A stretch of DNA of 64,000 bases from Antedon mediterranea (Eukaryota > Animalia > Echinodermata), in contig NC_092680.1 of NCBI RefSeq assembly GCF_964355755.1, forward strand, positions 19,291,045 to 19,355,044. Reading direction: 5' to 3'. The notes beneath the pieces were generated by a model. That model was given only the letters and a program-made list of their open reading frames with translations. It made no database searches and was not told the origin of the DNA. Every line of letters begins with the position of its first letter. Positions within the stretch are counted from its first letter, which is position 1. The position numbers were made by a program, and so were the translations under genes. Shown here piece after piece: positions 43,027 to 63,789 of this stretch.

Positions 43027-46000
43027 GACTATATTTTTTGTGTTTCTGCCTAAGTCAGCTGTGTGACTTAGGCAATTAAGGAGAGCTGACTTATGATCTG
43101 CCTAACTCACTTCTTATATCATTATACTGTCTTCTGTACATTATCTGAGTGCTTTTATATACATTTGCACATGCTCATATCGTTTTTTGTGTTTCTGCCT
43201 AAGTCAGCTGTGTGACTTAGGCAATTAAGGAGAGGAGACTCATGATTTTTTAAATAAAATAAGAAATACATTTTTATAGTATATTTTTTAATCCATTTGT
43301 TACAAATTCTTTCTCTTTTATTGCTACTTTCTTTTTCTAAAACCATCAGTGTTAATTTTAATCTGAAGAGCTGATGCTATTAAATTTTGATACTTAAAGG
43401 TAGCATTTTTTGTATATAGATGATATCGACAGCCTCATAACAAAAGTGTCTGAGTCATAATTTTTTTTTTTCTGCCTAACTCACTGCTTATATCAATATA
43501 CTATATTTTTTGTGTTTCTGCCCAAGTCAGCTGTGTGACTTAGGCAATTAAGGAGAGCTGACTTATGATCTGCCTATCTCACTGCTTATATCATTATACT
43601 GCCCTCTGTACATTATCTGAGTGCTTTTATATACATTTGCACATGCTCAAATCGTTTTTTGTGTTTCTGCCTAAGTCAGCTATGTGACTTAGGCAATTAA
43701 GGAGAGGAGACTCATGATTTTTTAAATAAAATAAGAAATACATTTTTATAGTATATTTTTTAACCAATTTGTTACAAATTTTTTCTCTTTTATTGCTACT
43801 TTCCTTTTCTAAATTCATCAGTGTTAATTTTAATCTGAAGAGCTGATGCTATTAAATTTTGTTACTTAAAGGAAGCATTTTTTGTATATAGATGATATCG
43901 ACAGCCTTATAACAAAAGTGTCTAAGACATAATTTTTTTTCTACCTAACTCACTGCTTATATCAATATACTATATTTTTTGTGTTTCTGCCCAAGTCAGC
44001 TGTGTGACTTAGGCAATTAAGGAGAGCTGACTTATGGTCTGCCTAACTCACTGCTTATATCAATATACTATATTTTTGGGGTTTTTTGCCCAAGTCAGCT
44101 GTGTGACTTAGGCAATTAAGGAGAGCTGACTTATGATCTGCCTAACTCACTGCTTATATCAATATACTATATTTTTTGGGTTTCTGCCCAAGTCAGCTGT
44201 GTGACTTAGGCAATTAAGGAGAGCTGACTTATGATCTGCCTAACTCACTGCTTATATCAATATACTATATTTTTTGTGTTTCTGGCCAAGTCAGCTGTGT
44301 GACTTAGGCAATTAAGGAGAGCTGACTTATGATCTGCCTAACTCACTGCTTATATCAATATACTATATTTTTTGTGTTTCTGCCTAAGTCAGCTGTGTGA
44401 CTTAGGTTATTAAGGAGAGCTGACTTATGATCTGCCTAACTCACTGATTATATCATTATACTGCCCTCTGTACATTATCTGCCTGAGTGCTTTTATATAC
44501 ATTTGCACATGCTCAGATCGTTTTTTGTGTTTCTGCCTTAGTCAGCTGTGTGACTTAGGCAATTAAGTAGAGGAGATTCATGATTTTTTAAATAAAATAA
44601 ATACATTTTTATAGTATATTTTTTAACCCATTTGTTACAAATTCTTTCTCTTTTATTGCTACTTTCCTTTTCTAAAATCATCAGTGTTAATTTTAATCTG
44701 AAGAGCTGATGCTATTAAATTTTGTTACTTAAAGGTAGCATTTTTTGTATATAGATGATATCGACAGCCTCATAACAAAAGTGTCTAAGTCATAATTTGT
44801 TTTTTGTTTTTCTGCCTAACTCACTGCTTATATCAATATACTATATTTTGTGTGTTTCTGCCTAAGTCAGCTGTGTGACTTAGGCAATTAAGGAGAGCTG
44901 ACTTATGAACAGTAGTAGCTTCAAGATCAACCAATCAATTTAAGTCCGGTCTTGAACGGGCATGGTCCAACCACCCTCTTAAATTTGCGCCATATTCAAG
45001 AGTTGATGTAATTATCAAGAGGGGCTTATAGGCATAGCCTAGCCTCGACTCCGGACCCAGCATTGCTGAGCTCCGGAAACAAGTAAACAAGTAAACAAGT
45101 AAACAGCCTAACTCACTGCTTATATCATTATACTGCCCTCTGTACATTATCTGAGTGCTTTTGTATACATTTGCACATGCTCAGATCGTTTTTTTGTATT
45201 TCTGCCTAAGTCAGCTGTGTGACTTAGGCAATTAAGGAGAGGAGACTCATGATTTTTTAAATAAAATTAGAAATACACTTTTATAGTATATTTTTTAACC
45301 CATTTGTTACAAATTCTTTCTCTTTTATTGCTACTTTCCTTTTCTAAAATCATCAGTGTTAATTTTAATCTGAAGAGCTAATGCTATTAAATTTTGTTAC
45401 TTAAAGGTAGCATTTTTTGTATATAGATGATATCGACAGCTTCATAACAAAAGTATCTAAGTCATATTTTTTTTCTTGCCTAACTCACTGCTTACATCAA
45501 TATACTATATTTGTTGTGTTTCTGGCCAAGTCAGCTGTGTGACTTAGGCAATTAATGAGAGCTGACTTATGATCTGCCTAACTCACTGCTTATATCAATA
45601 TACTATATTTTTTGTGTTTCTGCCTAAGTCAGCTGTGTGACTTAGGCAATTAAGGAGAGCTGACTTATGATCTGCCTAACTCACTGCTTATATCATTATA
45701 TCTGCCCTCTGTACATTATCTGAGTGCTTTTATATACATTTGCACATGCTCAGATCGTTTTTTGGTGTTTCTTCCTAAGTCAGCTGTGTGACTTAGGCAA
45801 TTAAGGAGAGGAGACTCATGATTTTTTAAATAAAATAAGAAATACATTTTTATAGTATATTTTTAACCCATTTGTTACAAATTCTTTCTCTTTTATTGCT
45901 ACTTTCTTTTTCTAAAACCATCAGTGTTAATTTTAATCTGAAGAGCTGATGCTATTAAATTTTGTTACTTAAAGGTAGCATTTTTTGTATATAGATGATA

Positions 46001-46312: not shown

Positions 46313-46506
46313 AGTCGCGTGGACGCGACTCTATAGTTCACTATGTCGGTCGGTCGGTCGGTCTGTCGGTCCGGTATCACTATGCGTTTTATCGCTTTTC
46401 TGTACTTTTTGAACTGTTTTGATGTACAGAAAAGTTTTAAAGTACATTACTTTTTGAAAGTTCATTTTTTTCTGAGAGCACGCGACTTATGGCTGTTGGC
46501 CTTATT
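46313..46506 (+). mobile_element. HINE / DINE-1-like element (complete, about 194 bp)
   Basis: TT|AGTCGCGTGGACGCGACTCTATAGTTCACTATGTCGGTCGG... GCACGCGACTTATGGCTGTTGGCCTTATT. Confidence 0.82.
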
Positions 46507-48290
46507 GGAAAAAATCCCTGTACTATAGTACAGGAAAATTTTCGAAAAATTGCCAATTTTCCACCCTTTTATTTTTGATATAATTGCTTACTATAGCATA
46601 ATTAACATGCGCAGACTCAAATAATGCTCTCTGCGCATGTCTATTGTGATATAGTAACCATTTATGTCGAGAATTAAAAGGTTCGAATTTTGGTCAATTT
46701 TTGAAAAAATCCCTGTACTATAGTACAGGAAAATTGTCAAAAAATTGCCAATTTTCGACCCTTTTTTTTTTTATAAAATTGCTTACTATAGCATAATTAA
46801 TATGCGCAGACTCAAATAAGGCATTCTGCGCATTGTAATTGTGATATAGTAACCATTTATATCGAAAAATAAAAGGGTCGAATTTTGGTCATTTTTTAAA
46901 AAAATCCCTGTACTATAGTACAGGGAAAATTGTCGAAGAATTGCCAATTTTCGACCCTTTTTTTTTTATATAATTGCTTACTATGGCATAATTAACATGC
47001 GCAGACTCAAATAAGGCGTTCTGCGCATGTCTATTGTGCTATAGTAACCATTTATATCGAAAAATAAAAGGGTCGAATTTTGATCTTTTTTTTGAAAAAA
47101 ATCCCTGTACTATAGTACAGGAAAATTTTCGAAAAGTTGCCAATTTTCGACCCTTTTATTTTTTGATATAATTGCTTACAAAAGCATAATTAACATGCGC
47201 AGACTCAAATAATGCGTTCTGCGCATGTCTATTGTGCTATAGTAACCATTTATATCGAAAAATAAAAGGGTCGAATTTTGGTCATTTTTTGAAAATTGCC
47301 AATTTTTGACCCTTTTATTTGTTGATATAATTGCTTACAAAAGCATAATTAACATGCGCAGACTCAAATAAGGCGTTCTGCGCATGTCTATTTTGCTATA
47401 GTAACCATTTATATCGAAAAATAAAAGGGTCGAATTTTGGTTATCTTTTGAAAAATTCCCTGTACTATAGTACAGGAAAATTTTCGAAAATTACAAATTT
47501 TCGACCCTTTTATTTTTTGATATAATTGCTTACTATAGCATAATTACAATGCGCAGAGTCAAATAAGGCGTTTTGCGCATGTCTATTGTGCTATAGTAAC
47601 CATTTATATCGAAAAATAAAAAGGTCGAATTTTGGCAATTTTTTTACCCTTTTATTTTTTACTATAGCATAATTAAAAAAAATCCCTGTACAGGGAAAAT
47701 TGTCGAAGAATTGCCAATTTTCGACCCTTTTTTTGTGGATATAATTGCTTACTATGGCATAATTAACATATGCAGAGTCAAATAAGGCGTTCTACGCATG
47801 TCTATTGTGCTATAGTAACCATTTATATCGAAAAATAAAAAGGTCGAATTTTGGCAATTTTTCGAAAAAATCCCTGTACTAGTACAGGGAAATTTTCGAA
47901 AAATTGCAAATTTTCGACCCTTTTATTTTTTTATATAATTGCTTACTATAGCATAATTACAATGCGCAGAGTCAAATAAGGCATTTTGCGCATCTCTATT
48001 GTGCTATACAGTAGTAACCGTTTATATCGGAAAATAAAAGGGTCGAATTTTGAATATTTTTGTAACCTTTTATTTTTTGATATAATTGCTTACTATAGCA
48101 TAATTACAATGCGCAGACTCAAATAATGCGTTCTACGCATGTCTATTGTGCTATAGTAACCATTTATATCGAAAAATAAAAAGGTCGAATTTTTGTCATT
48201 TTTTTACCCTTTCATTTTTTGATATAATTGCTTACTATATCATAATATAGCTATTTTATTATGCTATAGTAACCATTTATATGAAAAAAT
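46507..48290. repeat. Satellite A, right segment (about 10 units, period about 195 bp)
   Basis: ATCCCTGTACTATAGTACAGG at 46514, 46709, 46904 and 47101; some units lack this small palindrome. Confidence 0.93.
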
Positions 48291-49204
48291 CAATATTTTG
48301 GAAACTAGCAAACATATACAAGAACCACTATTTTAAATTATTTTAGTTGGCATGTGCGAAGAAGATTTTATTTTTCAACTTGTAATTCTGGTATTTCATT
48401 AATTTTTCAATAATATAAGTCAATATTACTTTTCATTGGTTATTGGTTGTACTTAATAATAATTATAAAATGTAGTACAGTGATTATTTTCAATAAAAAT
48501 AATAAATATACAATATTGATTATTTATAAGTACAATTTCAAAAAATCAATGTACTATATGTTTATTATGGTTATCACTATTATTAAAAATTATTATTATT
48601 TTTGAATAAAGTTCACAAGAAAAATTAAGATAAAATCCCTTCTCTACTTGGAAATAATTCGTGCAGAATATCCAACAGTCAACTTTTGGAATAAATGTCT
48701 GTTGGCATAATTACACACATAAAGTAGGCCCTACTGTGAATATTCTGATGCTATAACTGCAGAAATCCACATTTAATTAAGTAAAGAGGGCTGCAAATTC
48801 CATTTGGTAAAGTTTGTCTATTGTACAAAAAATAGTTTTTGGAAAAAAAATGAAGAAATTTCGGCCCTTTTATTTTTCGACATACAGTATTTTTTTCCGA
48901 TGATGACAAATTAGCGCATTTGGAAAATTGCTTATTATCCAAAAGGGTCATAATGGGTATCATTTCGGTAAGTAAAGTATATTCTTGCTTTTTACAATTT
49001 TCTGGTATTAACCCTACCATCTAAATACATAATCTCTCCTATTAAACTAAAGAAACACACAAGAGAATTGGCCACAAAAGTGTACTGTACACTGTACTAC
49101 AGTAAGAAATAATGGAAAACGGCGGGAAAATTAAATATTTTAACTAAAAAATTGATGCAGCTAACCCTTGTGGAAGTTGTTGCAAGGCTGCTATCCCTGG
49201 TGTT

Positions 49205-52200
49205 TTAGTTCCTGACGGACCACATTTCAGGGTATAACAGCTTTTTCAACATCATAGCCTCTGCTTCGGATGAGTCGAGTGTCTGATCCCGGAAGAAAAC
49301 AATTCCCGTCAGCTGTTCAATATCACTGATTGTTGCTCGGTGATCGGCAAGGTTTTCATCAAAATTCTAAAGAAATGAGAAAAAGCACTTTACGTATTTA
49401 TTCTATTAAACGCCTCCTCGAAAAAACGCCCTATGGCTCTAATAAACTCCTAAAATCCTTCTAAACGTTTATTCGAATAAATAAGCTAATTTTAATTTTC
49501 TTTACACAAGAAATGTGGAGAAACAGCAGTTACAAAGAACTGCCATCTTTTATTTGGTGGGTTTATAGCTTATGAAATCACATCTTCGCCATTGTATCAT
49601 TTACCTTGCAATTAGGAGGTGATTCGTTTGAGTGAGGCAGGATGAAGGATAGAATATCAATATCTTCCGGTCTTTTTCCACATGACGAAAATACTCTGTT
49701 ACTAACACGACATCGGGTCACGATGTAATAGTAGGCTGTGGGTACAGGAGTTTCTCCGATCCAATTAGAACTGTAATTTGAATGATAATAATAATAACAA
49801 TGGTTGTTATAAAATGTCATCATGTGAACCAAAAACAGTATAAGCAGATTGGAAATGCATATCCGAGAATAATCTTCCACTAAGTCAGATATGACGCAAT
49901 TTGTGCGGAAATGTTTACGAATTGACGTCTAGAATCGAGTCTGCCCGAGAATTGAGACCTGATTCTAAAATCACAGGACTTTAAAATACTACACATGCGC
50001 GCAACGGAAAAAAAAGAAATTAATGCTATATTTACCTTCCAGCAAGTTCATAATATGTATCTACTCTTGAATCGTGGTTCGTGTCGAAAATTGGTCCAAC
50101 TACGACATTGACACCTTTGTGCGTGTCTGCCCATCTTAGTGTTTGGCTAACAAGTCTGCTCCAATAACCTAAGATAAGAAAAACAGATCTATATGTGGTG
50201 AAAAATGCTATTTTCAAACAGACTATAACTTCCCCTTAATACGTACTATAACAAGTGTTTGGGAAGTGGGGGTAGGAGTAATTATACATAGTAACAGAAG
50301 CTTCAGTTCAGATGGGAAATGGAATTGCGGTGATTACACCACGAACTAATCGATTTATTCATGTACACATTTAACTATTTGTTTAATGGATACCTTCTAG
50401 GATAATCTTAAGCTCTGTCTAGACTATCAAACTAGTTCGTGTGTTGTGCCCAAATATGGTAGTGATATGCTTAAATATGGTAGTGATATGACACCATCGT
50501 GTCCATATATGGGCATGTCACATTTTGTTTTGTCACATAAAAGTTTGATAGTTTGACAGAGCTTTACTGAGCGCGATAGTAAAAAAATAGTATTAGGCCT
50601 ACCGGTGTAGAAATAAGTGTACATCGGGACAATGTTTGATGAAACAAGGCAATTGATCTGGTCAGTCTGGTCGTTTGTAGTTCCTGTTCCACCAGTATTT
50701 CCTGTATATTCTACAATAACAATAACATATTGTAAGTTACATTTAATAAGTTTAAAATTTAAAATGATAATTGTTTTAACTAGCTTTCCGTCAGAAAGCT
50801 AAAAGTAATTGGCCAAATTAGTTTAAACTCCTTCATGTTCTGACGTAATTTGACCTGATGCTAAGTATATAATTAAGAAAACTTGTACTAATATGCAGAT
50901 GTTGACAAAGGGCCGAGATATTTAGGAAGGCACCCTTAGTCGTCCATTAGCCGGGGGGGGGGGGGGGGGGTGTATCAAAGGCTTTGGGGTATCAAAGATC
51001 TTTGGTGGGTATCAAAGATCTTTGGGGTATCAAATGTATCTGGGGTGTATCAAAGTTCTTTGGGGAGGGGGAGTATCAAAGGTCTTGAGGGAGGTACCAA
51101 ATGCTTTGGGGGTAGCAAAGGCCTTTGGGGGTATCAAAGGCCCTTGGGGGTAGGACGTATCAAAGTATTATCTTGAGTGTTTGCACCCAGTATAGTAGGT
51201 CATTTTAGTCGCAGTCGTACGGTACATAATAAAAATATAAACTTAGTGATGTGTGAAAAATAATAACTTACTACTGCAGCTATAGAGAAAACGCTTGCTA
51301 AGTCCATTTTGGTATTGTGGTCCAATGTACGCGTTACATTTAACACTATTCTCGGTTTGAATACGAATATCATCTTTTGTACAAGTATCAATTGGTGATA
51401 TATAGTTTGTCTGAAATTACAAAGCATATATTGTAACTGAATACAAAACAGTATATAAAAAGAAACAAATTTTAAAATGTTCACAACTCAAATTCAAACT
51501 AGTTTGGCAACAAATGTGATATTTCCAAAAATGGTAGTGATATGAAATCATCATGTCCATATATGGGCATATCACTTTTATTTTGTCCTATAACGTTTGA
51601 TAGTGAAGACGGATCTTAATACAATTGAAAGAAATAAAACATTTTCTTTGGGGCTAAAATGTGACGTCTTTCCCTAAGCTAACTCTTAACCTAATCACAT
51701 GAGATGCTGTATTACGGATTTGCCTGTGAAACTGGATGGATAAATATTGTCACGAGGAGATACAGAAAGAGGATTAAACCACTTTATTTTAGGTAAAAGG
51801 AGTTTTATAAGTATTCGTTGGTTTTAAGTGGCAGTATACAAATTATTCCTACACTTATACAACAGCTGCTGCTTTTATGGATTTTTTTCGAGAGCTTCTC
51901 CAACTTTCGTAAATCCTTGATTTACACCGAAGTGGTTATGATGGTGTCGTGAATAATGTTGCTGAACTTTCGACAGCATAGTAAAATTAAGATAAACTTG
52001 AGTTTTATGACAACATGTATCGTTGTTACGCCGAACAACATCATCAGTGTAACAAGTGATTAAAGGTACTTAAACAATTGCCAAACGTTCGGCGATTTCG
52101 AAATGTATAAACTTATTTAACACATATTATAATATTATGGAAGCGTAACAGTACAATTGAGGCTATAACAGCTGTATATAAAGCCATGTTGGAAATACTT

Positions 52201-55200
52201 ACATTTTCAGGTAGAGTGTAAGTAAGCATTCGTTGAATTTTGATATAATTGTCGTATGCACTAATAAACCGTGTTTGATAGAGCAAACCAAAGTCTACAC
52301 CTAGTGGGTTAGTTTCGTTTACCAGGATAGGAAAGCCATACGGTGCATTTGTTGCCCTACTGGAAGATTCTACAAGATAAAATTTGCATAAGTTGCAGGT
52401 GTAAGTAGAACCATATAGTTCACTTTTACTTAATGAGATGGAATATCGGAATTAAACAAAACAAAAGCATGGGTTGTTACTAGTGAAATATGATTAATAA
52501 TTACGGTCTATCTATGACGTAAGGTATTGCAAGGGTAAACCAAAGACCCCTACTGAATGGGGTTTAGCTTGTTCTCTATAACGGGTTAGTATATACCTAT
52601 AACTAATTTGGATGATGTTTATAATAATTGTAAAATACAAAATTGTCAGTATGATGCTACATTAATTTAATACAGTTTTAAAGAACTTACTTTCATTTTG
52701 ATCTAAATCCAAATCCGAGTCAAAAAACCTACCGTCACGGTTAGAAAATTGCGTATTTGCAAGAAAAGACTGAAATTTACAACAAATTAAATTAATATCA
52801 TTAAATGCTTTTTTAATTTTTTTGTTTAATTCATGTTGAGCGTAATAGAGATGACCACTGTCAATTTTCCATAATTTCATGATCAAATTCCGGGAAAGAA
52901 ATCACATTTGAAACACACGTGTATGATAGACCATAATCTTACATGATACAGCCATCATATGTGAGCCACATGAGTTGCTGTACAAAGAATTTGCCTATGA
53001 TACGGGACATTATTATGTAATAAGAGGATTGATTTGCTTACTATTAAATCTTGTGCTGTGCACGAGCATCCTGAATTATACGCATTGTAACGTCTGTCTC
53101 GTTCAATGTTGTCACGTGGGTATGTAACTGATGTAGTGTTCTCGTTGTTGCTTCTGTAAGATGGCGTTCCAAATGAACCAGGACGTTGTAATGTAGACCT
53201 CATACTACCAGCTGTTCCGTTGTTTGGTTCAGGCGTTACATCAATCAGTTCTATCAATTTAAAACGGTATTATGTTTGTTTGTATTTTCTCGAGAGATAA
53301 ATAAACAGGTAATGAGAAACTTCCTATACTAAAATTTAAGTAATTTATAAACAATGTCACTACTTCTTGGGGGCCAGTCGGCTATTTTTCATTCACTATA
53401 CACATTGACAATACATGAAATTAAATAAATATATATAGGTAAATAATCAGAGACACAGAATATTTTCTATATTTGTTTTATAGTATAATATACGTTCATG
53501 CCATCTCCCCTACCCCTGTAAAAGACATAACCAACCTGCCATGTGTTTTATAGTATAATATACGTTCATGCCCTCTCCCCTAGCCCTGTAAAAGACATAA
53601 CCAACCTGCCATGAGATTGTACAGTTCTACATTTGCCACAGACTCTCTCAATACCAAACCATTTCTGAAACTCGGTCCAAATCCGACAAATAAACCCTTT
53701 TTACAAATAAAAAAAACGTAATTAATTTGTATGATATTTATCATAGACCTAGGTGTTTTTATAATGGAAAAATAGGAAGATTATGCAATGCAATTAAGAA
53801 GTAGGATTGTAGGATCGATTTCTGTATTTAAGTGGTAACATTACAGGTACACGATCTTAAAATAATACGTATAAAATATGTTAATGCTTTGGCCTATATC
53901 TAGTCCTGAAACTAATGTTCTCTAAACAAACGACCAATTATTATTGCCACAAAATATGAGACGTATTCGACTGCCAATTTCCTACTTCATGTTTGAACGG
54001 TTACAAAAAGATAGTAAAATCACTAGAAATATATATCCATGAGCAATATACGTGTGAATGTTCAAAGCACATTATGGTTACAATTAACCACATACTTACA
54101 TGCATCGACATGTTGAATGGATCAAATCCGGTATTAGCACCTCTGCAGTAATCCCGATTGTAGGATGATTTACGACTAAAATCAACAAACATTTACAATT
54201 CAATTTATTTATTTAATTGTCTCTTATCACAGAAAGACAAGCTAAGTGATGATGAAAATGTCAAGATTTGGTACTGTACCCTTCCAACTATCACAAACAA
54301 TTATCTTTAGCTTTTTAGGATGAGCTGATATTAGTTGATTATCCATGTAAGATGTCACTTCCTACATTAATCGCTTCATAAATTACTAAGGATAACAGGC
54401 TTTTTTTTAAATATAATTTTATGTTCATATCTATAGATACTAGATCTACAATAAAAATCTATTTAAAATTCACTTGGTCCGATTTGAACCTTTGAAATCT
54501 CACGTACAGGGTGGGCGAGTGTCTTACATAAAAGAATCTTAATGGTAAAAACCATGAAGTATTCTCAAAGCTACATACCTGCCGGAAAATACGGTTTCAT
54601 TATCCATGACTACGACAAGAGGTGTAATTCTTTCGTTGCTGCCAAAGTGATAACGTGATGGAATTGTTAAGTTTCTCATGTAGATGGAAGCAAAATCCTC
54701 TTTACACTGAAATAAATGACAAAAACAGTTACAGATTTATTGAAAGTTCAAACCTTCTGATAATTTTGGTTTTCTTTTATTAATATTATGGAGGAGTATT
54801 TATATCTTGTTGACACTGTAGATCGTGAGTAGAGTATGGGGTCTATCCTTTGTATGTATTGGAGGTTGTCCATGTACCAAGATACATCGAGATAGGGAAA
54901 ACGACTTATCACTCCAATATACTATTTACATTTAGTTTCTCCGAATTTATTTGAAATTAAATGGTCTTTAATCATAATGTGAAAAATCATAGATACTTAC
55001 AACCAATCGTTCCGCTAAATCTTCTGTCGTATTATACTTAGCACCTATATTGAAAAAAGTTTAAAATATTTTCTTACAATAAGACGGAGACATCAAAACC
55101 CTTTTAGTTATCAATAAATATTTACATTTTTAAAACGGGTATTAAGACGTTTTTCCCTTTGTTTTATACTCACGATCGTTTGGCAAAATCTCTGCAAATG

Positions 55201-58200
55201 ATCCAATATAATCTGGTGTTACGTCATAATCCCTCACATCATCAACATACTGAAATTAAATTATATATCCGATTTGTATTATTGTTTAAAAATAATTAGA
55301 GTAAAACAGTATAAAGCTCTGTCTACACTATCAAACTTTATGTGACAAAAAAATGTGATGTGCCCATATATGGACATGATAATGTCATATCACTACCATA
55401 TTTGAACTTATCACTACTATATTTGGGACACACCACACTTTTTTGTCAAACTAGTTGGAGGTTTGCTTGCACGTAGAAGCATACCTAAACCCCGTTCTCA
55501 AAGAGTGTCTGATAATTATTCTTACGTCATCAAGATAAAGCACGTCATCACAAGTGACATCGATCATGCCAGTAGTCCCAACAATCATGACGTCAATACA
55601 GTCCAGCATTTGTTCATCCATCAGATCTTCCATAACCAAACCAATTGCTTCATCTGTTTCACGCAGACTCTCATTAAACTGAAATAACATATGAACAAAA
55701 CGTGGTGAATAATTCATTATTGCTTTGATATCAAATTACAAGTTTGTCCTTTTCGTTCAATTATTAAAAAGACTTATTATAGTATTGTACTGTTATGTTT
55801 ACTATACGTTTATTAAATTAGACTTCTTTGTGACATAATTCAGCGTTTTTCATTTACAATGAGGAAATGCTTTGTTATTTATCCCTATGTTGTCAAATGT
55901 CTCCCTAACATCACGACTTTTGCCCCGAGCTTAACCCGTTCTCACGAGTAGATAAGATATGAAATTGCAGTGTCTGCCTAGCTTACTTGTTTTGAGTAGA
56001 TACCATACTTCCTTGCTGTTTTACCAGGGTCTTCCATAAACATGGTGATAAATCTCGGTCTAAACAATTAAATAAAAATTGTTCGAAATTTAAAAAACAG
56101 AATTAAAAAATAGGCTTGTATGAAGAAAAAATGGCAAAATTAAAACATGGTTCAATATTGATGTGAACTTTGAAGAAATATAGGTGGACAATGTTAACAG
56201 TTCATTTCGTTCAATTAAAACCACCTCGATGATTATGAGATCATTAATATCTAAAGGGTCTTACGACTACAGACAATTACTCTCTGTAAAATACCTATAT
56301 ATAATAAATAAATGTGAATTGAATTGAATTATTATTATATGAATGGAATCAGTTCACACAATTTTATTTAGGCCTATTGTATCTCCACATATGGAACGTT
56401 CAGTATCACGGACACATTATGTTATACAGTTTCACATGTTTGCCTCCCGTACTTCCCTTTTGAGCTGTCTACGACTCCCTATGTACCATACGGTATGTCA
56501 TCATGTGTGAAATTGTATAACATAATTGTCCTATTACACTTGGCAAATTATAGATATAGTATCGAGAATCGGTTACGTGGTTTGAAAAAAATTGAGTATG
56601 ATACAAATCGTATTCATTGGTGGTAGTATCGCATCGCTGACGAAATATGTGTCTGTTTCAAACGAATCTAATTGGAAATCTTTACACACCTCGTTTTAGA
56701 TGGCGCTTTAATCCATGCTTTAATCGTATTCATTCTGTCCTCGTATTTGACATCTCTGCAATAAATAAACATAATAAATCCACTAAGATGACAAAATTAT
56801 ACGCAAACAATAGGTGGCTTATGACATAATACTATTACTATAGTAAAAATAAAATACAGGTATATTATTATCTAAAGCTGTGTAAATATTGTCTAAGTAC
56901 ACCTACAAAACGGATAGGTCAACCAATAGACTCGAACCTAATTTTTCATCTATGATTCATGGTTAATGGTGATAGATACAAAATAAGCACTTTATAAAGT
57001 TGAACTTTATGAAATCGTGATATGATAATGTGTTATGTATAAGTAATGCAAGAGTACAAATATTGGCAAAGATTGCAGAGATGTTAGTGCAAAAATAACT
57101 GATTTTTTTTATTTATTTATACTGGGTGATTGGGGCATGAATGTAGTTGTTAAAAAAAGTATATAGAAATGATGTAAAGCAACGTGAGTGTGTGATAGAC
57201 CTGTTGGGCTTATATATGAATGGATGACGATCTGAGCTTGGACAAATATTGACACACATTTTGCTTACTCACTACTGCGACTTAGTGAAGATGTGGACAG
57301 ATTCAGAAAACTTAAATATGGTATACTGATCTAAAATAAGGTAAACAGTTTGTGTAGTCGGACGATTTTCTACTGATTTTAAAACGTCAAACAGTAGAAA
57401 GTTTACTCGAGAATAATTTAATACGCGGGTATTTCTCGAGTCATGGTAAAAGAAAACCGTTATGTAGGCCTAAATGCCTTTAGAAGCAAAATCTTAAAAT
57501 CCATACTCGTCATATTCTGCATAGTAAGTTGGGTGACGTTCTGTCTTTATACCGTCTTCGTATCTATCCTCTTTAACATTACTTCCAATCCACGAATGAC
57601 TGGCACTAATGTAACCTTCTTCGTTTGCAGACTCCCACAACTAAAATATAAATAAACAGAATGATAAGGAAATAACGCATTTGGCATGAACAGAAGACCA
57701 AACAAACTTAACCGAAACTGTCACTTATGATTGGTCTTTTACTTGCGTTGTGCATATACATCCGTGCGTTGCGCATACATCCGTGCGTTTCACATCATCC
57801 GTGCGTCGCACACCATCCGTGCGTCGCACATCATCCGTGCGTTGCACACACCATCCGTGCGTCGCACACATTCCATGCGTCGCACACCATCCGTACGTCG
57901 CACACCATCCGTGCGTTGCACACACCATGCGTCCTGTAGGAACCGAAGCTCAGACAGATTTAACGCAGTATATGTTAAACTCTGTCTACACTATCAAACT
58001 ACATTGACAAAAGAAGTGTGATGTGCTCAAATACTGCACCGTAGTGATATGCTTAAATATGGTAGTTCTATGACATCCATATATGGGCACATCACATTTT
58101 TTTGTCACATAAAGTTTGATAGTGTAGACAGGGCTTTACACCAGTAAGAAACTATAAATACCGCTTTGGCCTGGTACCAATAAGCATCGTCAAGTTGTGG

Positions 58201-61200
58201 ATCTTCTGGTTTTACAATAGGCTGAAAGGTACGACGATCTTCCTCCGAATATATATAATCAGACGTCACTCCATGATAATCAGGATAAAGGCCCTGGTGG
58301 AAAATAAAACGTTACTATTTTAACACATCTATTATAATTGTGAAAGTGTTCCAAGGAGGCCAAGGAGTTTTGTTGAAAAACCTAAAACGGATATAATCGT
58401 ATTATCGGAAAAATAAAAACAAGATTTAACCTTAAATTTATTTAAAGATTTAGTATTTAATATTTTCGCTTCTTGTGCTTTTACCAGAGCCTCTGTTTGA
58501 AAACTTTGTCTTGAACATGTATTTTGTACACATTTTTTCCACACATTTAGCCTTACACATGTTTAGATATGAAAAATGTTTAGGTTACAAACCCAACTCA
58601 ACACATTAGTGACGTGTTGATTGTTAAACATGTGGAGCAATTTAAAGACACGTTTAGGTTTTAAACGTGTTTAAATTGCCATGTGTGGAGCTCAAGTGTG
58701 GAGCTTTTTAGGCCACAGTAAAATCGTATGCACGCAACGCTAAACACGTACCTAAAAATGTTGACTGCTAAACATGTGGAAAAGTTGAAAACATAATAGT
58801 GTCATGGAGGAAAACAACATGTAGCTATAAACACATTTAGGTTTTACACACGATAAACATGTAACTGTGTTTAAAAGCTCAACAGTTTTTACAGTGTAAA
58901 GGGCAAAAGGGGTATTGTCGAACGGGTCTCACTCGAGAACGTTTTCAAGTATATACCTACAGTATTTAGTAAACTCACGTCAGTTAAGCATAATTGATAA
59001 TCATATTTCAGAATTAGAACACTAATCTTTATTTTACAGTAGGCTTTATTGTCCATGGTAACATCCTTAACGTCTGTTTTCATAACAATATGTTTGAATA
59101 TCAAACACATTAGCAGTAATCAAATAGGCTTACCGTAATTATTGAATATAGGTTAGGATATGTAAGAGCTGGAAACGACGGCCTCAGCTTAGCCTGCACT
59201 CCACATTGAGCTGAGTATAAAAAAGATCGAAAATATAACTAGAATAAATATAATAAATTTACGATTCAAGTTCTATTTAATACTGCAAGGCACTTACCAA
59301 GCCGTTTGATATTCTTGGCGTAGTTAGTGTTGTTCACATAGTCGTAGCGAAATCCGTCCAATGCTATTACAAGTAAAGGCTTTCTTGTATAACTACACAA
59401 AAAAAATGAACGTAAAAATGAAATACGTAAAAATAAAGAACTATTGACAATCTCAATATGTTATGATTATCTGATAATATAAAAACTATAAACTAAAAAA
59501 GTTGAGGAAAGTCATAATCATCACTGTTCATAATCTACTATACAGTATTGTTTCAGAGCGGTTTCTGGTGAGTTCAGTAGGCCTACTGAATATGGTCATT
59601 GTCATCTGGATGGCAGAAGATACCACCATTAAGGCCTATAGCTGTCTGAAGAAAAAAGGCCACGAAATCAAATTAGACAATTAGCTTTTTCAACGTGTAG
59701 ACTCCTCACTACTATTATACGAAACTTTTTAGTGAAACGAAAATGGGCTCTCGGCCAACCCTGATCAGGGAGAAATACGACGGCCAATATTATTACTATA
59801 TTGAGGGGACACGTTGTTGGGGACACGTTGTTGGGTCCTAAATATGTCCCCTTAACAAGCGTTCTAACTGTATATAATTACAGCTTTTGTTCTACTTACT
59901 CTGTTGGTTGGCATTTAAACGAACATGAACTGCCGTATGTTTTTGCAAAATTTCCTTGGTAACCAGAGCCTGCAAAAAATAGTTAAAAATTATCAATCAT
60001 AATATCGGGGAAATGCAGCAAAATATAAAAATAGTTGGATAATTATTTATTTTCTTTCAATTTTATTGTCTACGCCGTCGTTACTAATTGTTATGAATAA
60101 TTTTCCAGAGTTTACGAAAACGACGAAAAGTTGAAAGACTATTTCTTATTTCACATGAAACGAATGAAATTTGGTTTTAAAAAGTAAGGAAATACTACCT
60201 CTCTTTCCTAGACCAACTCCAAGACCGATAGCGAATACGAAAATAAGGATTACAACAATGACCTGAAAAATTAGAAACAATATTGAACAAATGTTAATAT
60301 TAATTCAATTTCACTATAGTAATAGTATTTCCCAGATATACTGTATATGGTTCTGGGATCTCCTCATGTTTATCATTTCAATTAATGAATAATGACCACC
60401 GGGCCATTTAGATTAATATATATCTAATCGAACCACGGAAGCCCAGTGGTCTAATGGTTCAACAATCTTGCATATCAAGCAGAAGGTCCGAGTTCGAATC
60501 TCGGTTGGGGCAGCATTTCCTCATCTTTATCGTTTCAAATTAATTAACATTAATCGCCATGGAGTAAATATATCACCGATCGGTTTAGAATTTCTTGAAA
60601 TGAATGAAAAAAGTAAAGGAGCATGCAAAGAAGAAAGTAAAACTAATCATAAAGTTTTCAGATGATTTTATGTATTTAGTTATGTATTAGGCCTATTATT
60701 TAAGAAAACCCATTACTAGTCATAGTCGCAAGAGACTACTACTAAGTTGCACATGCACATAGGCCTATTTAAGCTCAGCCAATGAGTTGAATTAGTTGAA
60801 ACAATAGTACATGCATTTGAGATTTTTAAATAATATTGTAATAAATAACATTCTTATTTTCATCTTATATTACCATGCTTGCTTAGCAAAACTTTTGGTC
60901 TATAATGAATAATATTAGTTGGAAGAAAATAGAGATTAATTTGTGCTATTGATCATGCGCATCATAAAGTATGTTTACTTTACTTACACAAATCTGTGAA
61001 TGAGAAGACAAACACGTGACGAGTTGGTAATATAGTGACGTCAGAATTAACATCATGAAATCATAGAAGAGTTTAATAAAAACGAAATTAAAATAATAGT
61101 AATTTAAAAATGAAAGATTTATATGTTAATAGTTAACAGAGAATGATGGAAATACGTCGCTGAATGGAATATAAAATAACACAGTGCATTAACTAATTTC

Positions 61201-63789
61201 AAAATTATTTTTTATATCATAATAAAATATTTTATTGAAGTGGTGTAACAGAATTACTATTTACTCTCCTTTTGTTTTTGTTTAATTGTTTTTAAAGTAT
61301 TTTGCTTCTTTTTTGTTTTTGTTTATTATAACCAGTAGAGAGACAAAGTCAAACGTAGCACAGAGTACGAACCAAAAATCTATCCTAGTAGGCTACAGTA
61401 GTTGATATACAGTAGGCCTACACTTATTCTGAAATATGTCAGGCCTAACTACACTTACCACTATAGCACGTTTTCCTGTGCAGCATTCACCCACTTCACA
61501 ACCACCTCCAGACGAGGAGGACTGCAAGGCAAAAGAAACAAACAAACATGGTTTTTTTTTATTTCATATAGTTCGGTTACATCATATGATTATGTGACAG
61601 CATAATTTATACAAGAGAACCCTTTAAGCATTTCAAAACGCCGCCATGACCAACATATACCAATATGGTGTCTTCTTTACGTAATAACAGGAATATCCGG
61701 TAATGCTTGGTTCCCACTCTAAAGCGTGGTTCCCACTAGCGACGCAACGCAAGGACCAATCTTTAGGACGCAACACAAGGACGTAACGCAACGTAAGTGA
61801 ATTGACCAATCACAAACGATAGATTATTCGAACTGTCGCTTGTCATTGGTTAACACGCTTGCGTTTCGTGTACGTCATTGCGTTACATTCTAGTGGGAAC
61901 CAAGCTTATGTAAATGATTAAGCCATGCATTACATTGCGTACACAATGAAAAGTCTAGGCCTATCGAAATTGAATTTAGATTCATCATGTCAGTTCGTAT
62001 TGACACAGTGGGTTCTCGTACCAATACGTGCATCTTATACGATTCAGCTTGTTTAAATATTTGAGTCACTCGTTTTACCTTTAGCTTACAATACCATTGT
62101 TCTCGTTCACATTATAAAACTGGAATCTTCATATTGCGTGTTAACGCAACCTATTTTGTAGTTGGTTTTGTTGAAGTTTCTATTGTTAATTTCCTGGTGA
62201 AATTGTTTTCTCTTTTTGTATATAAATGTTTTGTATACAATTTGTATATGGATGTAGGTCTACTATCCGAAATAAAATAAGTGAATATTTAATTCAATTT
62301 CCAAAAAATGGTTGATATTTCCAGCTATTATAGAAATTATCTCATATAGACTATGATTTATATTTGTTTTTTTAGATTAGACACGTGACCAATGTATTTA
62401 TGACTTAGTTCATGTACGGTACTGTTATATTCTAATTTAATAAACACTTAAGTCATCAATGAGCCACTTAAGTCATGGATTGATAATTCCATCATAAAAA
62501 TATAATAAATATTCATTTATATTAAAATCTTAAATTCTGCAAAGAAATACCTTATACCTTAAAAATAATACAACATTGCAACGGTAGCACGGTGAAATAA
62601 TATTATTTTAAAGGTATAGCACAGAGAAAACATAAATCAAGAAGTTAACATTTTGTGAAAACAAAACAATAACACTGTAATAGCCCTAATCATACCTTAC
62701 GTGAGTACCTCGTAAATAACAGTGCCTACAAGGTGCTGCGTAAGATTTCTATTTGACCCACATAAAATAACCTAAGTTTATTTACAAATTAAAAAATATA
62801 CTTTTAGTACACTGAACCGTGTTGTGTTCTGTTTTATTGATAACTGTGTAGCTACTCGATTACAAGAGGTTGACTTTACTTTGTAATGTAGGGGAATAAC
62901 CTGCGGCTTGCAGCTTACAGTGACACTTTACTCCCTCATTGGTCCCTTCGAGGCTCATTTGCCTGTCCACACGACACGAGGCACTGGGGTGACCCCTCTT
63001 CCGCGAGATGCACTAGAGTACACACGAATCAGATGTGGAAATTGGCCTTTAATTAAGCTCATCCGATGAGACTTGAACCCGTGTCGTTTGTAAAGTATGA
63101 CTGATGTGCGTTACCCCTACCTTAAACCACTCGACCACTCAAATGTATCGAGGATTACGTTGCCGAAATTGCATTTATTTCGGAAATAGTTTTGATGGCA
63201 CAAAGGCTACTTGCGCATCCCCAATCAAAATGGCACCGTGATGATGAAATATTTGATATTGGCATCCATAGAAATGGCAATAACCCAAAATATCTTTATA
63301 TCATGCAATGTAGTGATTCAAACGATCTACTGCGATGGTGTGTGCATACTATAAATCCATAAAAGAAAATAGGCCCTAGTGGAAGCAAATTGCCAAGAGG
63401 ATATGATGGTAATAATAGGCATACGTGCCTGGAATATGACATAACAAAAAACAAAATTGTCCTGTAAACAAGGAATTGTTGTTGTCCCTTGGAAGATATT
63501 TTTAATTGTCAGCATGTGTAATACACATAGGAATTCGTTATTTGGATGATTTACGATCAAATTTATGAACATTATTAATAAAAAAAACAAAACAGTGATA
63601 TCTGTTTTCCTTATTAAATCCATATGTTGATCTCGAAAGGTCAATTGTCACCTTACATAGGTCTACTATGCATTACATTCAACATTGATGTCACTGATTG
63701 AAATATTCACTTACGTCTTTTCCATAATATTTTTCACTCCCCTTGGTGGAATAGGCAGGCGCAGCATCAATGGCGTCCAGATCAATTCC
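49205..63789 (-). CDS. ENPP: ENPP1/ENPP3-like ectonucleotide pyrophosphatase/phosphodiesterase homologue (type II TM, PDE and nuclease-like domains), probably catalytically inactive; start codon not in the window
   Basis: In-frame exons on -: 63789-63715, 61521-61459, 60262-60199 (TM VIVVILIFVFAIGLGVGL), 59969-59900, 59392-59298 (PLLVIALDGFRYDY), 59210-59134 (RPSFPALTYPNLYSIIT), 58293-58162 (GLYPDYHGV), 57640-57507, 56755-56690, 56059-55987, 55678-55526, 55249-55174, 55044-55001, 54706-54579 (IPSRYHFGSNERI), 54175-54100, 53696-53606 (GLFVGFGPSF..NVELYNLM), 53250-53042 (PEPNNGTAGS), 52769-52691, 52369-52203 (APYGFP), 51410-51272, 50710-50603 (SNIVPMY), 50168-50036 (GVNVVVGPIFDTNHD), 49770-49605 (VPTAYY..SFILPH), 49366-49205 (HRATISDIEQLTGIVFF, TAA). 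The two 5'-most exons are less certain. Confidence 0.92.
50409..50565. mobile_element. M1 MITE copy in an ENPP intron
   Basis: TTA|AGCTCTGTCTAGACTATCAAACT ... AGTTTGATAGTTTGACAGAGCT|TTA. Confidence 0.85.
50953..51165. repeat. G18 run followed by a ~20-bp G-rich minisatellite
   Basis: GGGGTATCAAAG(A/G)(T/C)CTTT about 10 times. Confidence 0.8.
51780..52055 (-). mobile_element. Penelope-like fragment with a degenerate hammerhead motif
   Basis: Minus strand ACA-CTGATGA-T-GTTGTT-CGGCGT-AACAAC-GATAC-ATGT-TGT; downstream translation DLRKLEKLSKKIHK resembles PLE ORF N-termini (from memory). Confidence 0.5.
53474..53613. repeat. 70-bp tandem duplication overlapping an ENPP splice donor
   Basis: 53474-53543 and 53544-53613 differ at 2 positions. 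Confidence 0.9.
56405..56535. repeat. Inverted-repeat MITE-like element
   Basis: GGACACATTATGTTATACAGTTTCACATG pairs with CATGTGTGAAATTGTATAACATAATTGTCC. Confidence 0.6.
57744..57932. repeat. Minisatellite, 18-21 bp unit, about 10 copies
   Basis: CACCATCCGTGCGTCGCACA variants. Confidence 0.9.
60440..60512 (+). pseudogene. tRNA-like sequence (pseudogene or isolated SINE head)
   Basis: A box TGGTCTAATGG and perfect T arm CCGAG-TTCGAAT-CTCGG; the anticodon and acceptor stems are imperfect. Confidence 0.55.
61722..61907. mobile_element. Harbinger-like MITE
   Basis: TIR AGCGTGGTTCCCACTAG / CTAGTGGGAACCAAGCT, internal ACGCA repeats; a duplicated terminus lies at 61705-61719. Confidence 0.7.

What the first reader, a model, noticed from the sequence alone, without database searches (positions are those of the whole stretch)
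54100..59392. Intact ENPP gene that has lost its zinc site: a candidate pseudo-phosphodiesterase
Seen: all 24 exons splice in frame with no stops. Against human ENPP1 motifs (established numbering), D218 (LDGFR) and the nucleophile T256 (ALTYPN) are kept. EEPDSSGH (D376/H380) reads EDPGKTAR (55987-56059), ISDHGM (D423/H424) reads VGTTGM (55526-55678), GFHGSD (H535) reads ANTGFD (54100-54175), and phosphate-binding N277 (GIIDN) reads GVTSD. Five of six Asp/His zinc ligands are gone while the surrounding fold residues are conserved. Inference: the gene is maintained for a non-catalytic cell-surface role, such as nucleotide, cyclic-dinucleotide or lipid binding, decoy, adhesion or a biomineralisation scaffold. 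The new K/R residues in the pocket could bind phosphate without hydrolysing it.
Basis: partly seen in the sequence, partly recalled or inferred. Interest (0 to 1): 0.85.

Follow-up and report, generated by a model that had tools for sequence, protein, structure and literature searches.

The report
Ancient zinc-less ENPP pseudoenzyme of echinoderms
A feather-star gene related to cell-surface nucleotide-cutting enzymes is intact and spliced but has lost five of its six zinc-holding residues; relatives with similar losses occur in starfish, a brittle star, a sea urchin and an acorn worm while a sister gene keeps the full site, so it is likely a very old non-enzymatic surface protein that databases name as an enzyme.

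Summary
Observation confirmed. The 24 exons in the window splice without a stop and equal residues 16-874 of RefSeq XP_071964894.1 (Antedon mediterranea). Against human ENPP1, D218 and T256 are kept; D376G, H380R, D423T, H424T, H535T and N277D are real. One contig of a probable RNA run joins exons 8-17 as modelled. This is no local accident. The same degeneration marks one clade (100/100): two crinoids, two starfish, a brittle star (two genes), a sea urchin and an acorn worm. It is sister to an intact paralogue clade, so the duplication likely predates the echinoderm-hemichordate split. Starfish also lost D218 and T256. Losses fall on catalytic residues (6 of 8, against 8 of 70 other conserved positions), while the fold, disulfide cysteines, transmembrane helix and EF-hand-like motif persist. 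Best reading: a zinc-free, type II membrane pseudoenzyme that likely acts by binding or scaffolding through a remodelled former active site. Ligand and tissue are unknown; no activity was measured. Ten literature searches found no description.

The parts
49204..63789 (-). ENPP1/3-like pseudoenzyme gene, 24 coding exons in the window; start exon lies beyond 64000
   Evidence: equals residues 16-874 of P0001 / XP_071964894.1
63715..63789 (-). exon 1 in window, cytosolic tail
61459..61521 (-). exon 2, cysteine-containing juxtamembrane stretch and start of the transmembrane helix
60199..60262 (-). exon 3, rest of the single transmembrane helix (residues 59-77)
   Evidence: hydropathy; helix 57-79 in model
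59900..59969 (-). exon 4, short stalk with C98 and C102; no somatomedin-B domain
59298..59392 (-). exon 5, D218 equivalent kept (D118, codon 59358-59356)
59134..59210 (-). exon 6, nucleophile T256 kept (T154, codon 59163-59161); K255 is L, F257 is Y, H260 is L
58162..58293 (-). exon 7, N277 replaced by Asp (D175, codon 58260-58258), Asp in 9 of 9 clade members; L290 is P
57507..57640 (-). exon 8, HSWIG in place of FFWPG and an 8-residue longer insertion loop
   Evidence: joint seen
56690..56755 (-). exon 9
55987..56059 (-). exon 10, D376 is G (codon 56025-56023), H380 is R (codon 56013-56011)
55526..55678 (-). exon 11, D423 is T and H424 is T (codons 55576-55571)
55174..55249 (-). exon 12, clade-specific insertion with P361 (8 of 8 full-length members)
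54579..55044 (-). exons 13 (55044-55001) and 14 (54706-54579), PDE lid subdomain
54100..54175 (-). exon 15, H535 is T (codon 54132-54130); Asp in the six other echinoderm members
53042..53696 (-). exons 16 (53696-53606) and 17 (53250-53042), end of PDE domain, NNGT sequon (N498) and linker
49204..52769 (-). exons 18-24, nuclease-like domain with EF-hand-like DTNHDSRVD motif (exon 22, 50168-50036); stop codon ends at 49204
   Evidence: joints of exons 20-23
48361..49203 (-). probable 3' untranslated region
   Evidence: 757-nt contig of run X1 at depth 752 covers 48361-49130; inferred

Best explanation
This is an intact, spliced ENPP1/3-type gene whose product lacks five of six zinc ligands and the phosphate-binding Asn, is predicted to keep the full ENPP fold on a single membrane anchor, and likely works as a zinc-free, non-catalytic surface binding or scaffold protein. 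Shown: the substitutions, the open frame, splicing of exons 8-17 and 20-23, one degenerate clade across crinoids, asteroids, an ophiuroid, an echinoid and a hemichordate, and an intact sister clade. Inferred: a duplication before the echinoderm-hemichordate split left hydrolysis to the sister gene. This copy lost its metal site, and the cavity was refilled with residues fixed in echinoderms (H260L, N277D, L290P, D376G; mostly H380R/K and H535D, which could form a salt bridge where Zn1 sat). It also gained a longer insertion loop and a Pro-containing lid insertion. The folded ectodomain would then be displayed at the cell surface and bind a macromolecular or cationic partner (protein, matrix component or Ca2+-bridged ligand) rather than hold a nucleotide phosphate. 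My odds: non-catalytic and selected about 0.9; partner-binding or scaffold rather than nucleotide decoy or paralogue regulator about 0.6 given that.
For: Loss. In mouse ENPP1, Ala at any one of the D218, D376, D423, H424 or H535 equivalents abolished ATP and cGAMP hydrolysis and the N277 equivalent was needed for both (PMC9173814 passages); four of those five plus N277 are changed here. Clade: 100/100 on 640 columns with the catalytic motifs removed, sister (98/97) to intact ambulacrarian ENPPs. AU tests reject a crinoid-only origin (p 2.8e-5) and an all-echinoderm clade (p 5.2e-4). Targeted loss: 6 of 8 catalytic positions against 8 of 70 other near-invariant PDE positions, Fisher p 2.7e-4. 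No residual ligand is common to the clade: starfish have D218N and T256A, Ptychodera D218N, T256A and a 5-residue deletion over D376. Fold kept: pLDDT 85, pTM 0.85, TM 0.90 by target length to ENPP3; 14 ectodomain cysteines, one transmembrane helix and the EF-hand-like motif conserved. PDE identity 79% between the two crinoids and 71% between two starfish. Newly fixed residues: 4 of 22 pocket positions against 7 of 344 others, p 0.0025 (pocket list recalled and drawn up after seeing the alignment). Splicing. Precedent for catalysis-independent ENPP1 and autotaxin functions: passages of PMC12465099 and PMC6826961.
Against: No activity, metal content, ligand, tissue or phenotype was measured. 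The pocket is not strongly conserved across classes: 7 of 22 positions invariant in four class representatives against 16 of 22 in the intact paralogues, and 71 of 366 over the whole domain; the fixed residues may only stabilise an empty site. The PDE domain diverges faster than in the intact paralogue (39% against 54%, Anneissia-Acanthaster). D218 and T256 survive in crinoids, the brittle star and the urchin. Of four exonic allele differences listed for run X1, three are non-synonymous (too few to judge, none at the eight site codons, and one search showed only part of its rows). dN/dS could not be computed: no orthologous coding DNA was held. Expression rests on one run whose RNA status is a guess.
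Confidence: 0.55

Rival explanations
1. Nucleotide or cyclic-dinucleotide decoy or sensor: the dead site still binds ATP, AMP or cGAMP, with Arg or Lys at the H380 position replacing zinc.
For: H380 position is R or K in 5 of 7 echinoderm members; W322, N259, an aromatic at Y371 and mostly Y340 persist. ENPP1 H362A, which loses Zn1 affinity, still binds cGAMP (Ki 320 against 120 uM; PMC9173814 passage).
Against: N277 is Asp in 9 of 9 and H535 is Asp in 6 of 7 echinoderms, which puts acids where phosphate binds. F257 is I, I, A or S in four members; F321, D326, K255 and H260 are changed in all seven echinoderms; K287 is not conserved; both starfish have no basic residue among ten site positions.
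Confidence: 0.15
2. Regulator of the active sister enzyme: the dead copy pairs with the intact paralogue (through the membrane helix or ectodomain) and tunes its trafficking or activity.
For: Both genes coexist in Anneissia and Acanthaster and both have one N-terminal membrane helix. Pseudoenzymes often regulate active paralogues (recalled).
Against: No co-expression or interaction data. An intact paralogue was not seen in my hits for Antedon, Asterias, Amphiura or S. purpuratus, though the searches show only cluster representatives.
Confidence: 0.13
3. Residual or altered chemistry: D118, T154, D175 and (outside Antedon) the new Asp at H535 bind one Mg, Ca or Mn ion and support a slow or different hydrolysis or phosphotransfer.
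For: D218 and T256 are kept together in 5 of 7 echinoderm members; new Asp residues line the site. A one-ligand loss can spare ATP hydrolysis (H362A).
Against: Both starfish and Ptychodera lack the nucleophile and D218; Antedon lacks the H535 Asp; no His remains at any ligand position in 9 of 9; single losses of four of the changed residues already kill ENPP1.
Confidence: 0.08
4. Skeleton-specific scaffold that binds Ca2+ or mineral at calcification sites.
For: The clade is so far seen only in ambulacrarians, which make calcium carbonate elements (recalled); acid-enriched site and loop (2-6 D/E in the loop); vertebrate ENPP1 has a catalysis-independent role in bone (PMC12465099 passage).
Against: No entry named phosphodiesterase, pyrophosphatase or ENPP that fits this family in the S. 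purpuratus spicule, test, spine and tooth table or the Patiria supplements; names may hide it. The loop is about as acidic in intact paralogues (2-4 D/E).
Confidence: 0.07
5. Recent pseudogene, assembly error or wrong exon model.
For: 3 of 4 listed exonic allele differences are non-synonymous.
Against: Open frame over 24 exons, identical RefSeq model, spliced contig, no alternative exon, and the same state in eight other proteins from six other genera or records, one of them a partial model.
Confidence: 0.02

Closest known systems
Vertebrate ENPP3 and ENPP1 (PDB 6f2t, 6c01, 6wet; Pfam PF01663 plus nuclease-like domain)
   Same: Type II single-pass topology, PDE plus nuclease-like domains, TM 0.80-0.91 by target length, 26-28% structural-alignment identity, conserved cysteines, NNGT sequon and EF-hand-like motif.
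   Different: No somatomedin-B domains; five of six zinc ligands, N277, K255 and H260 replaced; longer insertion loop and a lid insertion.
Intact ambulacrarian ENPP1/3-like paralogue (Anneissia XP_033103056.1, Acanthaster XP_022102616.1, Holothuria KAJ8032888.1, Diadema, Saccoglossus)
   Same: Sister clade (98/97), same architecture without SMB domains.
   Different: Keeps D-T-N-D-H-D-H-H at all eight site positions (7 of 7 named intact rows, amphioxus included); only 26-33% identical to the degenerate paralogue of the same species in the PDE domain.
Engineered inactive ENPP1 (T238A, H362A) and non-catalytic roles of ENPP1 and autotaxin
   Same: Show that an ENPP scaffold can act without catalysis (passages read).
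   Different: Those are side functions or laboratory mutants of active enzymes; here a natural gene lineage seems to have lived without the metal site.
PbgA/YejM, described as an alkaline-phosphatase-superfamily pseudo-hydrolase (recalled, no call)
   Same: A membrane-anchored alkaline-phosphatase fold used for binding rather than catalysis.
   Different: Bacterial, sulfatase-like, five membrane helices, lipid sensor; not homologous at family level; not tested here.

Membership tests
ENPP/NPP family (PF01663), ENPP1/3-like subgroup, by descent | PF01663 domain above the curated cut-off | tested here: met
   231 bits against cut-off 23, profile 1-342 of 342
ENPP/NPP family (PF01663), ENPP1/3-like subgroup, by descent | PDE domain followed by a nuclease-like domain with an EF-hand-like motif | tested here: met
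   Full-length match to ENPP3 and ENPP1 by sequence and fold; motif kept. PF01223 scores in starfish and brittle-star members but not in P0001 itself
ENPP/NPP family (PF01663), ENPP1/3-like subgroup, by descent | Type II membrane anchor | tested here: met
   One hydrophobic segment near the N-terminus in 9 of 9 members; orientation is inferred
Vertebrate ENPP1-3 | Two somatomedin-B domains | tested here: not met
   No PF01033 hit in P0001, P0005, P0042, P0049 or the intact P0069; stalk of about 20 residues
Active NPP enzyme | Six Asp/His ligands for two zinc ions | tested here: not met
   1 of 6 in Antedon; 0 or 1 in all 8 full-length members
Active NPP enzyme | Thr/Ser nucleophile | tested here: met
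   T154 in Antedon; Ala in both starfish and Ptychodera
Active NPP enzyme | Phosphoryl-binding Asn (N277) | tested here: not met
   Asp in 9 of 9
Active NPP enzyme | Measured phosphodiesterase activity and zinc content | not testable with these tools
   needs recombinant protein
Pseudoenzyme | Catalytic residues lost while fold residues stay | tested here: met
   6 of 8 against 8 of 70, p 2.7e-4; model pLDDT 85
Pseudoenzyme | Gene intact, expressed and retained over long time | tested here: met
   Open frame, spliced contigs in one probable RNA run, clade across four echinoderm classes and a hemichordate; dN/dS not computed
Pseudoenzyme | A demonstrated non-catalytic function | not testable with these tools
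   no ligand, partner or phenotype known
Venom phosphodiesterase (the automatic database name) | Secreted, active venom-gland enzyme | tested here: not met
   Membrane-anchored, metal site absent; the name reflects similarity only

The most novel reading that the evidence does not exclude
A dedicated receptor family built from an ENPP enzyme before echinoderms and acorn worms split: the old catalytic cleft was rebuilt into a site for a new ligand and serves a core ambulacrarian process such as skeleton or connective-tissue formation, regeneration or innate signalling. It would be a natural, whole-lineage case of the catalysis-independent signalling proposed for mammalian ENPP1.
Probability: 0.2. 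Interest if true: 0.85.

Novelty: new variant of a known kind. Interest (0 to 1): 0.62.

Why it matters
ENPPs are treated as enzymes everywhere; one survey found the H380-equivalent His in 100% of 998 eukaryotic species examined (PMC9173814 passage). A zinc-less ENPP lineage kept across four echinoderm classes and a hemichordate, probably for over 500 million years (date recalled), means the scaffold has a selected job without catalysis. That bears on the open question of catalysis-independent ENPP1 signalling in bone, and it can be tested in sea urchin or starfish embryos with the intact sister gene as control. It also corrects database names (venom phosphodiesterase-like, ENPP3-like) for at least nine proteins. 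Pseudoenzymes as such are well known and the function is unshown, which caps the score.

Tried and rejected
No whole genome was held, so an intact Antedon paralogue and dN/dS could not be sought. No listed run is on record as RNA; X1 is a guessed RNA run and is used only for the joints its contigs show. A two-chain prediction of the Acanthaster intact and degenerate PDE domains gave no answer (0.04 against a mark of 0.34, alignments not used, pending, result); it is no evidence either way. ESM Atlas returned only ordinary PF01663 clusters and no structure search. Literature: ten searches; five hit nothing or nothing relevant on echinoderm or invertebrate ENPPs by title and abstract start (21, 22, 58, 68 zero hits; 24 unspecific), 36, 37 and 40 listed unrelated papers that I did not open. 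Subscription journals and most supplements were not searched, so a prior mention cannot be excluded. Skeleton proteomes: term searches of main text and supplements of PMC5460417 and PMC2909932 found no ENPP-type entry; I did not search those tables by sequence or gene id. Earlier scan notes: nothing by sequence, place or first word set; one related note by words. No holothurian member of the degenerate clade appeared; the searches show representatives only, so this is not absence. Rejected: alternative exons, pseudogene, crinoid-only origin, K287 as a conserved phosphate binder. Rows dropped: isoforms and rows with over 20% gaps before the first tree (90 rows kept); 34 rows chosen; 12 long or unnamed outgroup rows removed for the 22-row careful tree.
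Full report
Observation. The five motifs are in the window on the minus strand. Splice sites fixed by AG/GT give 24 exons from 63789 to 49204, 859 codons and one terminal stop. The translation is identical to residues 16-874 of RefSeq XP_071964894.1, named venom phosphodiesterase 2-like, Antedon mediterranea. The start exon lies beyond the window. Aligned to full-length human ENPP1, D218 and T256 are kept, and D376, H380, D423, H424, H535 and N277 read G, R, T, T, T and D. K255, H260, F321, P323 and D326 are also changed. Six-frame motif scans and tblastn with two intact paralogues find no alternative exon.

Expression. Run X1 (RNA by guess only) has a 1978-nt contig, depth 108, that joins exons 8 to 17 across nine consecutive introns at the modelled sites, including the exons with G286, R290, T333, T334 and T447. 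A second contig joins exons 20-23, and those three joints have zero depth in the DNA-like run X2. So 12 of 23 introns were seen spliced; the others were not shown in the cut tables. This is one run of one study, and contigs drop rare isoforms.

Homologues. Searches with one exon, the PDE domain, a four-sequence profile and the whole protein gave 181 stored proteins. Of 158 PDE-domain rows with all six ligand columns filled, 133 keep 6 of 6; 13 keep 0 or 1, all echinoderm members of this group with isoforms counted; 12 keep 2 to 5. The set is query-driven, not a census. Named members: Anneissia japonica, Acanthaster planci, Asterias rubens (and A. amurensis in its cluster), Amphiura filiformis (two genes), Strongylocentrotus purpuratus, the acorn worm Ptychodera flava, and a partial model XP_006816031.1 whose organism name was cut off and which groups with Ptychodera.

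Phylogeny. On 640 columns with the catalytic motifs removed, the nine degenerate proteins form one clade (100/100), split into hemichordate-side and echinoderm branches. Its sister (98/97) is a clade of intact genes from Anneissia, Acanthaster, Holothuria, Diadema and Saccoglossus (same shape with 34 rows). Holding the crinoid genes with the intact crinoid gene is rejected (p-AU 2.8e-5), as is one clade of all echinoderm genes (p-AU 5.2e-4). The urchin branch is long, and long-branch pull cannot be fully excluded. The inference is a duplication before echinoderms and hemichordates split (over about 500 million years, recalled). N277D (9 of 9) and the P361 insertion (8 of 8 full-length) are shared marks. 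The replacements at the other ligands differ between hemichordate and echinoderms (Ptychodera keeps D423, has D218N and a deletion over D376), so erosion continued separately after an early loss.

Pattern of loss. Among PDE positions near-invariant in 25 other rows, the clade lost 6 of 8 catalytic ones and 8 of 70 others (p 2.7e-4). Starfish and Ptychodera also lost D218 and the nucleophile. Fourteen ectodomain cysteines, the single membrane helix and the EF-hand-like motif of the nuclease-like domain stay. The model is confident (pLDDT 85.2, pTM 0.85, 56 sequences) and matches ENPP3, ENPP1 and autotaxin along its length, though the alignment held many intact enzymes. Between Anneissia and Acanthaster the nuclease-like domain is about equally conserved in both paralogues (36% and 39%), whereas the PDE domain is 39% in the degenerate pair and 54% in the intact pair: catalytic constraint is gone, fold constraint is not. 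In mouse ENPP1, Ala at five of the six ligands each abolished ATP and cGAMP hydrolysis, only H362A (H380) spared ATP, and the N277 and K255 equivalents mattered too (PMC9173814, passages). Catalysis by the ENPP mechanism is therefore very unlikely here.

How it likely works. Shown: gene, splicing, clade, residue states. Inferred: an inactive, folded, type II membrane ectodomain. For the role I favour binding or scaffolding through the remodelled cleft. Residues newly fixed in all seven echinoderm members are enriched in the pocket (4 of 22 against 7 of 344, p 0.0025), with a caveat that the pocket list is recalled and post hoc. The site turns acidic rather than basic, and the nucleobase slot is altered (F257 variable, F321 small or His, D326 lost), which argues against holding nucleotides. 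Against my reading, only 7 of 22 pocket positions are invariant across four classes (16 of 22 in the intact paralogue; 71 of 366 for the whole domain), so a tightly conserved small-ligand site is not evident and the fixed residues may simply stabilise a metal-free core. Three of four listed allele differences are non-synonymous, none at the site codons. Rivals are a nucleotide decoy (0.15), a regulator of the active paralogue (0.13), altered one-metal chemistry (0.08), a skeleton scaffold (0.07) and pseudogene or artefact (0.02).

Comparison and novelty. By descent it is an ENPP1/3-like protein without somatomedin-B domains; it fails the test for an active NPP. Non-catalytic roles are reported for ENPP1 (T238A mice; PMC12465099, passages) and autotaxin (PMC6826961, passages), but as side roles of enzymes. 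Ten searches of the open library showed no description of a natural zinc-less ENPP clade; subscription papers and unsearched supplements may hold one. Two skeleton-proteome papers, searched by term in text and supplements, name no ENPP-type protein. Partial ligand losses occur separately elsewhere, for example in Macrobrachium and related rows, and an earlier unchecked scan note reports an arthropod ENPP6-like case, so ENPP degeneration recurs; this clade is the most complete case in my set. Verdict: real, new variant of a known kind, interest 0.62.

Noticed in passing
window about 1400-39050, + strand: A long multi-exon ABC transporter gene, tail to tail with the ENPP-like gene; one exon scores PF00005, and ABCA subfamily is my reading of the translated exons.
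   Followed up: partly
P0032, P0087, P0072, P0080, P0168: A second, independent group with partial zinc-ligand loss (2-4 of 6 kept, Met or Val at D376) that includes Macrobrachium rosenbergii and branches with an intact Oratosquilla protein; a possible crustacean pseudo-ENPP lineage.
   Followed up: partly
P0039, P0040, P0041, P0044: Unnamed proteins of 1400-2200 residues with two or three tandem ENPP modules; in P0040 and P0044 one module has lost ligands while others are intact.
   Followed up: no
P0042 and P0043: Amphiura filiformis has two degenerate copies with near-adjacent accession numbers on contigs of the same length, probably tandem duplicates.
   Followed up: no
window 43028-45700 and 46505-48246: Tandem arrays with periods of about 98, 472, 142-195 and 354 bases in the intergenic stretch.
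   Followed up: no
window about 50440-50540, 51540, 55310-55440, 57970-58140, 61720-61910: Short very high-copy interspersed repeats inside introns (summed contig depth above 1e5 in some bins, palindromic joints), MITE-like by appearance.
   Followed up: no
P0001 residues 48-54, window 61459-61521: Cytosolic cysteines just before the membrane helix in both crinoids only, possible palmitoylation sites (inference).
   Followed up: no
P0069 (Anneissia intact paralogue): Its model lacks about 90 residues after the H535 motif, probably a missed exon.
   Followed up: no
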